A stretch of DNA of 64,000 nucleotides from Octopus vulgaris (lineage: Eukaryota): NCBI GenBank assembly GCA_951406725.2, contig OX597817.1, positions 33,170,001 through 33,234,000 of the forward strand. The letters run 5' to 3'. The position numbers were made by a program, and so were the translations under genes. Under the pieces are notes generated by a model, which was given only the letters and a program-made list of their open reading frames with translations, did no database searches and was not told the DNA's origin. Shown piece by piece: positions 225-63,706 of the stretch (position 1 is its first letter; each line of letters opens with the position of its first letter).

Positions 225-520
225 AAATATTATTTATATTATTCTTGCATTTAGGGATGGTCATACTGCCAGTTTAGCCAATAAAAATACTCGCACTATA
301 TATTTGGTGTTAATTTGCTTCAGCTTTATTCTGTTTTATACATTAATCTTATTTTGGCCAGAGTTCTTTCGTCACACTTCTGTGACCTCATCAGTGGTCC
401 TTTGCTTTCTTCTTTCTTATTTGTGTGTCTCTCCTTACTAACGATCAGCCATTTTGTATTATTTATATTAATTTATTTTGTAATTATTTATTTTGCAATT
501 ATTTTGTATTATTTATATTA
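225..520 (-). mobile_element. Penelope-like element fragment (pLTR region: HHR followed by ORF start MTIPKC...)
   Basis: 241-310 is homologous to 55930-56005, which adjoins a GIY-YIG fragment. Minus-strand ATG at 264 reads MTIPK. An HHR lies at 356-400. Confidence 0.65.
356..400 (-). ncRNA. Minimal type I hammerhead ribozyme, canonical core
   Basis: Minus strand reads GGACCA CUGAUGA G GUCACA-GAAG-UGUGAC GAAA G-AA-C UC / UGGCC. Stem I CCA/UGG (+GG/CC), 6-bp stem II, 2-bp stem III, CUC triplet, predicted cleavage between 361 and 360. Confidence 0.75.
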
Positions 521-2629: not shown

Positions 2630-2875
2630 GAAATATGTTCTGTTGTGTCTGGAGAGAGTCATCTTCTTTTTGTGCCTTATAATGTAACACACTCACCGGT
2701 AAAATTTCCACTTATTTCTTATTTTTATTTTCCTAAAATTTTCATTGCATCTTGTAACCTTTTCAATAGTCTTATAAGGCACAAAAAGATGACTCTCCCC
2801 AGACACAACAGAATATGCTTCAACACATGAACTCATATAAAGAATCTTGCAAACTAAATCCAGAAACGAAATATA
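2630..2875. mobile_element. Penelope-like fragment with internal inverted duplication and HHR-like motif
   Basis: Inverted repeat 2637-2682 / 2772-2815; homologous to 7900-8073; ORF start MTLPRHNRICFNT at 2789 (+). Confidence 0.65.
2733..2769 (-). ncRNA. Minimal HHR-like motif with U3-A8 core (UUGAAAA)
   Basis: Minus strand reads CUA UUGAAAA G GUUAC-AAGAU-GCAAU GAAA A-UU U / UAG. Stem I CUA/UAG, stem II partly decayed, palindromic stem III AAAUUU. Confidence 0.5.
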
Positions 2876-4013
2876 GAAATATGTTATTAAGGGAAAATAA
2901 GAATTTAAACAATAAACACATATTTTCAAATACTGATTCACTCTAATTTTTTACATACTTGTCTTGGTGTGATCAAGGCCATCATAACAACATCACAGGT
3001 CTCTAGGCTAAGTAACATGCAGAACACCCTATATACACAAATACACCCTTCTTAGATTAACACTGGGCCCTCTTGACCTGTGCAACTGACTAGTTTATCT
3101 ATACCTTAAGACATTAATTGATGTGATAGAGATGCAGCACGGATTTTTGTCAGTGAACAGGTCGCAGATTTTAGCGACAAAAATATTTTGACAAATTAAA
3201 CTTAAATGTTGAAGTGAATCGAACGGCTTTTGTGTGTTTCTTAAATGGCTTACAAACACCTTCCACGCTGCAATTGATGTGATAGTTTTTTTAAAAAAAA
3301 GTTTCAAGTTTTTAAATGTGAATACTTATAATACCTTGTATAACTGAAGGCACTTCTTGCTGCTAAACACTCACCTGCTGTACTTAATGTCAACCTGGTA
3401 TCAACTAGACACAAGCAGAGTAAACGTGTTTTTCCTTGAAGAACATGACAATTGACTATAAGAGATTTGAAGCAGTGAGCCTTTGATCAGTAGACGTTAA
3501 ATCCTATAAACGACAGTGGGAAACAAATATAATATTTTACTCACAATCGCTTCTTTAAAGATCTACACAAGACTTTATATTATATTTATATTTTATGCCG
3601 TCCTCTATATTCTTTGTGTTACTTCTGAAATAACTCAGACAACAAAGGGAATCCAATAATGACTGAATAAACCAGCAGTTGACTCAATCACCAGAACGTT
3701 TCCACACCCATGATTGTTTAAGTCTGTCTCACTATTCATGCTTTTAGTTATTAAAAACTGTTTGTCACTTCACGTAAATGGTGTCAGAGAATTAAGTTTT
3801 AAAGAATACTCTTTATCTCCATAAACAAATGTACAGTTCTGTGTATTTACTTGGTGGTTTAATCATTATTAGCTTGATGGCCACAACTGGATTATACTTC
3901 TACTGAAGATTCCAAATAAGTGGCTTGTTTGAACCTGTTCTCCATAATTGCTGAAGATAAAAAAATATTAGGCACAAACTAAAATTATAATTATTATTAT
4001 TATTTTCAACATA

Positions 4014-7899: not shown

Positions 7900-8119
7900 A
7901 AAATATTTCGTTTTTGGATTTGGTTTGCAAGATTCTTTATATGAGTTCGTGTGTTGAAGCATATTCTGTTGTGTCTGGGGAGAGTCATTTTCTTTTTGTG
8001 CTTTATAATGTAACACACTCACCGGTAAAATTTCCACTTATTTCTTATTTCTATTTTTATTTTTATTTTCCTATAAGAAATAAGAAATAAGTGGAAATTT
8101 TACCGGTGAGTGTGTTACA
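7900..8119 (-). mobile_element. Penelope-like fragment with 44-bp fold-back at its 5' end
   Basis: Minus ATG at 7988 reads MTLPRHNRICFNTRTHIKNLANQIQKR; perfect inverted repeat 8009-8052 / 8076-8119. Confidence 0.65.
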
Positions 8120-54188: not shown

Positions 54189-54658
54189 ATATATATGAAA
54201 AAACAAGTCAAGATAGAAAATGCTAAAATAATTTTATAAAGAACATTTCAGTACCGGTTTTGGTCATTTTGAGACCTTTTCAACTGTAACGATTAAATAA
54301 TTAAATTTAGAAAAATTAAAAGAAAAGTTTTTTTAAAGGAATATTTGTATAGTGTTCAAATATAAGTGGCATTTTCCTTGTTTCTGCCTTTCTCTGTCTC
54401 TCTTGTTTGCACTTGTGTGTTCAAACTCTTGGTAGGGTAGAAGAAGAAGAAGGATGATGAGGAGAAGGGGTGGAAAAATTTGGGAGTGCCTTGATTGTTG
54501 TATTTTGAATGGTCAGTGGTGGCTAGCTGTTGCAGTTCAATTCAGGAGAATATTTCTATTGAAAGGTTTGTTTATGGAATTTGCTTAGGTGTTATACTAA
54601 AAAGCATTAGTGATAAAGTTAAGAAGTAGAAGGTGGGGCAGAAGAAGAAGAAGAAGAA

Positions 54659-55829: not shown

Positions 55830-55889
55830 ATGTATATATATGTGTATGTATATGTGTGTATATATATATGCATATATATATATATATAT

Positions 55890-56303
55890 TTGTTTTGCTA
55901 GATTTTTTATGTGAAATCATGTGTTGAAACAGATATTGTTGTATTTAGGAATGGTCATTTTACCAGTTTAGCCAATAAAAACACATGCACTATATATTTG
56001 GTGTGCTAGTATTCCATTCCAGTTTCCTATTCAGGCTAGGTTTATCTTCTATTATGTGTCTAGCTTCTGTAATTTGTCTGATTGTTGCGTGTGTTCTATG
56101 TGTGGACAAGATTTTAACTTCTATGTTGTTGATTGAGCCCCCGTGTTCCTGCTCGGTGTGTTGGTACAGAACTGAGGAGCTCTTTCCTTCCTTAAGTTCT
56201 CTCCAATGTTCGTTTACCCACTCTCCTATGCTCTGTGCCGTTTCAATCAACAACATAGAAGTTAAAATCTTGTTCACACATAGAACAGATGCAACAATCA
56301 GAC
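55890..56303 (-). mobile_element. Penelope-like element: GIY-YIG endonuclease C-terminus, following ORF restart, and 5' inversion
   Basis: 55990-56244 reads ETAQSIGEWVNEHWRELKEGKSSSVLYQHTEQEHGG...VKILSTH..ATIRQITEARHIIEDKPSLNRKLEW; inverted repeat 56076-56136 / 56243-56303; ATG 55958 reads MTIPKYNNICFNT. Confidence 0.8.
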
Positions 56304-62660: not shown

Positions 62661-63706
62661 CTTGTACATCGACATGAATTTTGGAAGAGGGGTCTTGCAA
62701 GTCTACCAGATAGATAGAAGAGCATTGTAGAAAATGAAGAAGAGTATATTTTAGATTAAAAATGAACTTTGTTTCTCCTAATTTTGAAAAATAAAAGAAG
62801 CATAAAAAACTGCATTATTTATGGGGTGACCCAAAATATTCATGTATGTTTATATATATATATATATATTTATAAAAAGTGTAGGTGGCTATTATGACCA
62901 ACGGTCACTTTCACGATTACAGCCAACGATTCTAGTCAACGCACAAGACAGCCATTATGCTCCCCACCACAAAACACCTCCATGTGGATTCAGTTGAGAC
63001 TAGTAAGAAACAATTATAAGCTTTTTTATTACACTTAACTTTTAAAAATATTTTTGATAAGGTTCGTTTTTTCAAGAAGATCCGAAATATGTAAAATCTC
63101 TAAGGGACTTGCTCTGCCACCAGACTCCCATTGTAATTCTCTTGTCCTCTAGCATGAAGCTGACCATCATGGCCACCACCCCAGGGCTTGTAGTCTGGCA
63201 AACAACAAGTGAACCTCAGTAGTGCAGGCGGCATGAAAAAAAAAAACCAGTCCATGCTGTAAAGTGGTTGGCATTAGGGAAGGCATCCAGTTATAAATCT
63301 ATGCCAAGGCAGACGTTTGAGCTATCTTTGGACACATGCGATCCTGTTGAATCATCCAGCTCATGCCAGCATGGAACATGGACATTAAATGATGATGATG
63401 ATAAAGATGATGACTGATGATGATATATTTATATATGAAAGAATAGTCTCATTCGTATAATGATGATGGTCATTTGCAGCCATCACGTGATGTACTAAAG
63501 TACACACAAACACATATATGCATACATACATACATACATACATACATACATACATACATACATACATACATACATACATACATACATACATACATACATA
63601 CATAGTTAATCCCAACATGAACAAGGAAAAAAAACAAACCACTTCGTGAGGAATTGGAATAAGTATAGTGTTATGGGACGCTCAGGAAAGGAAAGAACGA
63701 AGGAGG

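What the first reader, a model, noticed from the sequence alone, without database searches (positions are those of the whole stretch)
2733..2769. Homologous ribozymes swap the catalytic-core pair C3-G8 for U3-A8
Seen: this motif (UUGAAAA core) lies ~73 nt upstream of an MTL[PS]RHNR start, the position the canonical HHR occupies before MTIPK at 264. A second motif with different stems (54249-54286) also has UUGAAAA. Known: C3-G8 is a Watson-Crick pair in the active HHR fold, so U3-A8 is a compensatory change. Inference: cephalopod Penelope subfamilies may use a non-canonical UUGAAAA hammerhead that CUGANGA searches miss. I cannot tell whether this is already reported for these families.
Basis: partly seen in the sequence, partly recalled or inferred. 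Interest (0 to 1): 0.75.

Follow-up and report, generated by a model that had tools for sequence, protein, structure and literature searches.

The report
Swapped-core hammerheads in Penelope-like elements
This is a worn copy of a likely self-cutting RNA motif at the end of a Penelope-type jumping gene; its paired swap of two core letters is the norm for its family but is already published, while a neighbouring sister family carries a rarer flipped pair that I found in no paper searched, and cutting is untested.

Summary
Confirmed: 2733-2769 (minus strand) is a minimal type I hammerhead with U3-A8, 70 nt upstream of an MTLSRHNR start. U3-A8 is a family trait, not decay: 20 of 23 copies fetched by an anchor outside the core have it, none has C3-G8. 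Longer copies lie downstream of a GIY-YIG endonuclease, so the family is Penelope-like. This copy is worn (helix II broken). The swap is known: natural U3-A8 in Perreault 2011, and about 1,300 U3-A8 Penelope hammerheads in Schistosoma (Cervera 2014). The second motif (54249-54286) is real but belongs to a distant Penelope clade (about 25% endonuclease identity), not a sister subfamily. One clade thus holds three Watson-Crick states at 3-8. Natural G3-C8 was in no paper found, but Lunse et al. could not be read. This scan has already noted both U3-A8 and G3-C8 families elsewhere in this genome. Cleavage is untested.

The parts
2733..2769 (-). Minimal type I hammerhead motif of family B, core U3-A8; worn copy (U instead of C11.1 at 2744, helix II mismatch at 2755). 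Predicted cut between 2736 and 2735.
2635..2773 (-). Terminal-repeat fragment of Penelope-like family B: hammerhead, 5' leader, ATG at 2662 and the first codons of the reading frame
   Evidence: 96% identical over 139 nt to an intact family end; family linked to a GIY-YIG endonuclease
2772..2882 (+). Second, inverted and shorter family B end (ATG at 2789, no hammerhead), head to head with the first
3146..3195 (+). Minimal hammerhead motif of sister family D, core G3-C8 (G3 = 3153, C8 = 3158); this copy has A instead of G12 at 3179
3128..3276 (+). Terminal-repeat fragment of family D with ATG at 3245 (MAYKHLPRCN...)
355..400 (-). Hammerhead motif of sister family A, canonical C3-G8 (C3 = 394), upstream of ATG at 264
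54249..54286 (-). Minimal hammerhead motif of distant family C, core U3-A8 (U3 = 54283); this copy has A instead of G12 at 54261
63050..63096 (+). Worn hammerhead motif of family G (core UUGAUAA, U3-A8; U3 = 63054), related to family C

Best explanation
The motif is a worn genomic copy of a minimal hammerhead, likely a self-cutting RNA, in the terminal repeat of a Penelope-like retrotransposon family in which U3-A8 replaces C3-G8 in nearly all copies examined; the swap is predicted to keep the core pair and so the cutting fold. Shown: the motif, its fixation in the family, its place between the end of a GIY-YIG endonuclease gene and the start of the next reading frame, and three different Watson-Crick pairs at 3-8 in three related families (C-G, U-A, G-C). 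From established knowledge: 3-8 is a base pair of the active fold, and double swaps rescue single mutants. Inferred: two motifs pair through the palindromic helix III, probably helped by the element's own protein, and cut slowly after U17, trimming tandem transcripts; selection on that fold fixed each swap in the master element. This inserted copy is probably inactive.
For: Fixation: 20 of 23 family B copies from loci fetched with an anchor about 400 nt upstream have U3-A8, 1 has C3-A8, 2 have the 5' core deleted, none has C3-G8 or G8 (29 loci examined, 6 without a copy over the core); 29 of 29 top BLAST loci. Family C 29 of 29, family G 20 of 20 (of 30 loci chosen by endonuclease), family D G3-C8 30 of 30 chosen by endonuclease and 29 of 29 by BLAST. 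Linkage to endonuclease; Pfam GIY-YIG in D and G, RVT_1 just under its cut-off in G. A, B and D form one clade, support 99/99, 45-57% identical endonucleases, with alignable frame starts. Covariation over 12 motif types: 12 of 12 paired, 6 changed on both sides, 0 of 500 shuffles as high. Decay in B copies falls mostly on the C11.1-G12 CpG (6 and 4 of 23), where all three window variants depart. Literature: PMC4209133, PMC3088659, PMC11167929.
Against: No cleavage shown. Family B is a weak fold: 3-bp helix I, an all A-U 4-bp dimer helix III, U17. Predicted dimers of B and D did not place helices I, II and III together as in the active dimer. In C and D the predicted ground state pairs position 3 with position 17 over the cut site. 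In an Anolis element the hammerhead was not needed for insertion in vitro and no reads ended at the cut site (PMC11167929). The 12 rows were hand-picked from descriptor hits, two of them single copies, and the 5 non-paired relaxed hits were left out; families are related, so 0 of 500 is no probability. Fixation within a family reflects one master copy, not many events; four of the 23 B loci share flanks and look duplicated.
Confidence: 0.8

Rival explanations
1. The hammerhead fold is kept and the 3-8 pair is selected, but the swapped families barely cut: the motif serves as a folded handle for the element's protein or as a deliberately damped ribozyme.
For: Position 3 is predicted to pair with position 17 in C (U3-A17) and D (G3-U17), like the C3-G17 trap described in PMC3884650. 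C3G/G8C rescues only partly, and cutting is dispensable for insertion in vitro (PMC11167929). Low activity of minimal hammerheads in vitro (PMC4209133).
Against: All other catalytic positions (G5, A6, A9, G12, A13, A14, A15.1-U16.1, H17 not G) are kept in the young D copies, 30 of 30, which a mere handle would not obviously need.
Confidence: 0.15
2. The swaps are neutral hitch-hikers: each family's master element lost ribozyme function and the pairing at 3-8 is coincidence.
For: Only about 6 to 12 motif types were counted, and they are related. Three family A copies of 23 carry C at position 9, so amplified copies can carry core damage.
Against: G3-C8 needs two transversions that happen to be complementary. 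Every multi-copy family seen pairs at 3-8, and helices keep pairing with different sequences.
Confidence: 0.04
3. The two changes are decay of this one copy, or the motif is a chance match in A+T-rich DNA.
For: The window copy alone does not fold better than shuffles.
Against: Family-wide U3-A8; 0 strict hits in shuffles.
Confidence: 0.01

Closest known systems
U3-A8 minimal hammerheads of Cercyon Penelope-like elements, Schistosoma mansoni (Cervera and De la Pena 2014, PMC4209133; read: parts 1-2 of 4 of the text, part 1 of 3 and a term search of supplementary file 2; file 1 not searchable)
   Same: Same core swap, same minimal type I layout (short helix I, extra nucleotide before helix II, G10.1-C11.1, palindromic helix III), same place in the terminal repeat, same single or inverted copies.
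   Different: Different host and Penelope clade. The extra nucleotide is G here (their consensus: not G). They report no G3-C8 family in what I read.
Natural U3-A8 hammerheads (Perreault et al. 2011, PMC3088659; read: passages and section 8)
   Same: Natural covariation of C3-G8 to U3-A8, described as compensatory and active in vitro.
   Different: Not tied to Penelope elements in the section read; no G3-C8 named there.
Poseidon element hammerhead of Anolis carolinensis (Frangieh et al. 2024, PMC11167929; read: parts 1-2 of 4)
   Same: Hammerhead at the start of the reading frame, copies ending at two points inside the frame start (tail). Engineered C3G/G8C partly rescues cutting.
   Different: Natural core is C3-G8; G3-C8 was only a laboratory mutant. 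There the frame starts in helix II, here 92-135 nt after position 3.
Animal non-LTR retrozymes (PMC7229834, passages; bioRxiv 10.64898/2026.07.22.740005, part 1 of 5)
   Same: Tandem repeats of about 360 nt with type I hammerheads occur in this genome, with C3-G8 (L091) and with U3-A8 (L155, L158, L056).
   Different: The motif in question is no tandem monomer; it is a piece of a coding element's end.

Membership tests
Minimal type I hammerhead (min-HHR) | Core N3-UGA-N7-N8-A and GAAA, U16.1-H17, in type I order | tested here: met
Minimal type I hammerhead (min-HHR) | Watson-Crick pair at 3-8 | tested here: met
   U3-A8 in 20 of 23 B copies; covariation between families
Minimal type I hammerhead (min-HHR) | Helix I of 3 or more pairs and helix II closed by G10.1-C11.1 | tested here: met
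   met in the family (L259 copy); degraded in the window copy
Minimal type I hammerhead (min-HHR) | Palindromic helix III half that allows a dimer | tested here: inconclusive
   palindromes present (AAUU in B, AAUAUU in D, ACCGGU in C); cofolding did not give the full active dimer for B or D
Minimal type I hammerhead (min-HHR) | Self-cleavage after position 17 | not testable with these tools
   only contigs were available
Penelope-like element with C-terminal endonuclease | GIY-YIG endonuclease with cysteine linker and internal CCHH motif upstream of the hammerhead | tested here: met
   B; A; C, D; Pfam GIY-YIG for D and G
Penelope-like element with C-terminal endonuclease | Reverse transcriptase in the same frame | tested here: inconclusive
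   not fetched for B. G: RVT_1 28.9 bits, cut-off 29.6. D: no Pfam RT hit, but DKSG and YVDD motifs and E 9e-10 to the G protein
Penelope-like element with C-terminal endonuclease | 5'-truncated and inverted copies, two end points inside the frame start, (TA)n neighbours | tested here: met
Penelope-like element with C-terminal endonuclease | Full element flanked by two direct terminal repeats | tested here: inconclusive
   none among 9 long stretches fetched for D and G showed one; all looked 5'-truncated; B not fetched
Named Penelope clade (Neptune, Nematis and others) | Place in a reverse transcriptase tree with reference elements | not tested
   no reference sequences held; the cysteine linker fits Neptune or Nematis as described in PMC8557442
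Non-LTR retrozyme | Tandem non-coding monomers each with a hammerhead | tested here: not met
   family B ends continue upstream into an endonuclease gene; the window copy is an inverted pair

The most novel reading that the evidence does not exclude
One clade of Penelope-like elements has fixed three different Watson-Crick pairs at the hammerhead's 3-8 core position, including a G3-C8 pair so far known only as a laboratory mutant, in a family that is still amplifying. The pair needs two transversions through non-pairing steps, so it shows that ribozyme folding is under selection in Penelope elements even though cutting is dispensable for insertion in vitro, and the three sister families form a natural test series.
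Probability: 0.45. Interest if true: 0.5.

Novelty: new member of a known kind. Interest (0 to 1): 0.3.

Why it matters
The U3-A8 swap itself adds a host and families to a published variant. It matters in practice: 6 of 16 strict hits in the unbiased sample, and the Penelope families with the most intact frames seen here (G, U3-A8; D, G3-C8), are invisible to CUGANGA searches, so hammerhead counts for such genomes are too low. The better lead is the series C3-G8, U3-A8, G3-C8 in three sister families. The role of Penelope hammerheads is an open question (PMC8557442; PMC11167929), and repeated compensatory swaps argue that the active fold is selected.

Tried and rejected
Rfam scan of the window: no hammerhead family among 88 matches at E up to 1; nearly all were microsatellite matches to miRNA models. 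Idea that G3 in family D is forced by a splice acceptor: rejected, since a better acceptor-like site (branch-like CTAAC, pyrimidines, AG) lies about 23 nt upstream; splicing was not shown. An acceptor-like AG directly before U3 in family C stays untested. Sequencing runs: no RNA holder listed on record; only contigs. One search is not used for B positions 3 and 8, because a known majority difference at 2755 was also not listed there. The family B copy estimate (25 of 120 stretches) was discarded, as the query ran into another repeat; one search gives 5 of 120. Pfam on a 908-residue frame in L135: nothing useful. Direction of the swaps: the tree leaves the order of A, B and D open, is rooted at the midpoint only and carries a long-branch warning; a 16-residue-shorter filter or outgroup test was not run, and 25 rows from 24 chosen loci were used. 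Papers not held: Lunse et al., Przybilski and Hammann 2007, Nelson and Uhlenbeck 2008. Look-up of earlier notes by the D sequence gave nothing.

Full report
Observation. Helix I is 3 pairs (2769-2767 with 2735-2733), the core is UUGAAAA (U3 = 2766, A8 = 2761), then one extra G, helix II (2758-2744), GAAA, a palindromic AAUU half-helix III and U17. The ATG of MTLSRHNR is at 2662, 70 nt past the motif. The motif belongs to a 139-nt piece (2773-2635), 96% identical to an intact family end, set head to head with a shorter copy on the plus strand (2772-2882). The window copy is worn: U replaces C11.1 and one helix II pair is broken, and it folds no better than shuffles (z +0.5), while an intact copy folds as helices I and II (z -2.3).

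Chance. I fetched 120 evenly spaced 10-kb stretches of the window's genome and scanned them with positions 3 and 8 free. A strict descriptor gave 16 hits, all Watson-Crick at 3-8: 10 C-G, 4 U-A, 2 G-C. They come from only 6 families (7 hits are one tandem array). Five block shuffles gave none. A relaxed descriptor gave 25 hits, 20 paired and 5 not (three of these at one ATG repeat), against 0.8 per shuffle.

Fixation. To avoid choosing copies by their core, I searched with a stretch about 400 nt upstream. Of 29 loci, 23 had a copy over the core: 20 U3-A8, 1 C3-A8, 2 with the 5' core deleted, none with G8. Four of these loci share flanks and look duplicated. The 29 top BLAST loci were all U3-A8. 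Damage falls mostly on the C11.1-G12 CpG (6 and 4 of 23), which is also where the window copies of B, C and D depart. About 5 of 120 stretches hold a family B end, roughly 10,000 loci by extrapolation.

What carries it. Longer B copies continue upstream into the end of a GIY-YIG endonuclease gene with a cysteine linker. The same holds for family A, the canonical motif at 394, and for C, the motif at 54249-54286. Copies are 5'-truncated, often inverted, end at two points inside the frame start and sit beside (TA)n, as described for Penelope-like elements (PMC8557442, passages; PMC11167929). I did not fetch a reverse transcriptase for B and found no complete element.

At 3146-3195 on the plus strand lies a further motif with G3-C8. 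Its family, D, is young: 38 of 150 scored matches had an endonuclease stretch identical to the query. All 30 loci taken from that search carry G3-C8 with the other core positions intact (a few are two ends of one inverted insertion). Helix I has 7 pairs, helix II 5, and the helix III half is a 6-nt palindrome. A 1025-residue frame holds polymerase-like motifs and a Pfam GIY-YIG domain. In contigs from four runs of three coded organisms, no other letter at 2% or more was listed at positions 3 or 8, while neighbouring positions were listed; the loose-end lines of two runs read the core intact, those of the other two depart in places with little support. A fifth family, G, has U3-A8 in 20 of 20 copies from 30 loci chosen by Pfam GIY-YIG and has many 781-residue open frames; a worn copy lies at 63054.

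Relationships. On the endonuclease region, A, B and D form one clade (99/99; 45-57% identity), apart from C and G (about 25% to B or D). Their frame starts align too. So C3-G8, U3-A8 and G3-C8 each mark one of three sister families, which needs at least two double changes. U3-A8 also occurs in C and G and in a tandem repeat of about 360 nt whose C3-G8 counterpart shares little beyond the motif. The order of A, B and D is unresolved and the tree is not rooted, so direction and number of swaps are open; independent origins of U3-A8 are an inference from C3-G8 being the general consensus. Across 12 hand-picked motif types, 12 pair at 3-8, 6 with both sides changed, and 0 of 500 shuffles reach that; the choice of rows and their kinship inflate this.

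Mechanism. C3-G8 is a pair of the active fold (PMC3884650, passages); G8C costs about five orders of magnitude and C3G partly restores it (PMC8495972, passages). In an Anolis element the single changes abolish cutting, the double change partly rescues it, cutting needs the element's protein, and insertion in vitro does not need cutting (PMC11167929). Minimal motifs cut weakly and only as dimers or with a lengthened helix III (PMC4209133). I infer that B is a slow, dimer- and protein-assisted ribozyme that trims tandem transcripts, and that selection on the fold fixed the swap. Against this: B is a weak fold, cofolding did not give the full active dimer for B or D, and in C and D position 3 is predicted to pair with position 17 over the cut site. 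No cleavage evidence could be had: only contigs were offered.

Known or new. U3-A8 in nature was reported in 2011 (PMC3088659). U3-A8 in Penelope minimal hammerheads, missed by a C3-G8 descriptor, with about 1,300 hits in Schistosoma mansoni, was reported in 2014 (PMC4209133). For natural G3-C8, searches and the 2014 supplement search (file 1 not searchable) found only engineered mutants. Lunse et al. on Penelope hammerhead variants is not held and could list it. This scan has noted U3-A8 and G3-C8 families on other DNA of this genome, and G3-C8 in a phage; those notes are unchecked and I had reached the same reading before seeing them.

Verdict. Real, family-fixed, compensatory and already described as a class; this copy is probably dead. 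Interest 0.3, carried mainly by the G3-C8 sister family and the three-state series.

Noticed in passing
window 3146-3195 (+): G3-C8 hammerhead of young sister family D; upstream of it, longer copies have an acceptor-like site about 23 nt before G3, and many short copies begin there.
   Followed up: yes
window 63054 (+), 63737 (-), 9488 (+): Three more worn hammerhead motifs of other families: G (U3-A8), E (family C3-G8, this copy C3-A8) and F (C3-G8). The window holds at least seven motif families.
   Followed up: partly
L091:2300-4560; L155:8600-9040; L158:8363; L056:766 and 1121: Tandem repeats of about 360 nt with type I hammerheads (retrozyme-like), one family C3-G8, one U3-A8; they share little outside the motif.
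   Followed up: partly
L075, L166: Three of 23 family A copies have C at position 9, perhaps a subfamily amplified with a damaged core.
   Followed up: no
window 54284-54330 (-): In family C a pyrimidine-rich tract and AG end directly before U3, as if an intron end formed helix I, as described for Drosophila virilis Penelope; splicing not shown.
   Followed up: no
window 7903-8119: Fold-back of two family B ends that lacks the hammerhead.
   Followed up: no
window 55865-56300: Family A end without hammerhead, and next to it a minus-strand piece that reads like the family A endonuclease.
   Followed up: no
L321-L323: Family G has many near-identical 781-residue frames with reverse transcriptase and endonuclease, preceded by several hundred bases of element sequence with an internal repeat; likely recently active.
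   Followed up: partly
run X18 laid on L101:8199-8322: One very deep contig of coded organism B keeps positions 3 and 8 of family D but differs in helices I, II and III.
   Followed up: no
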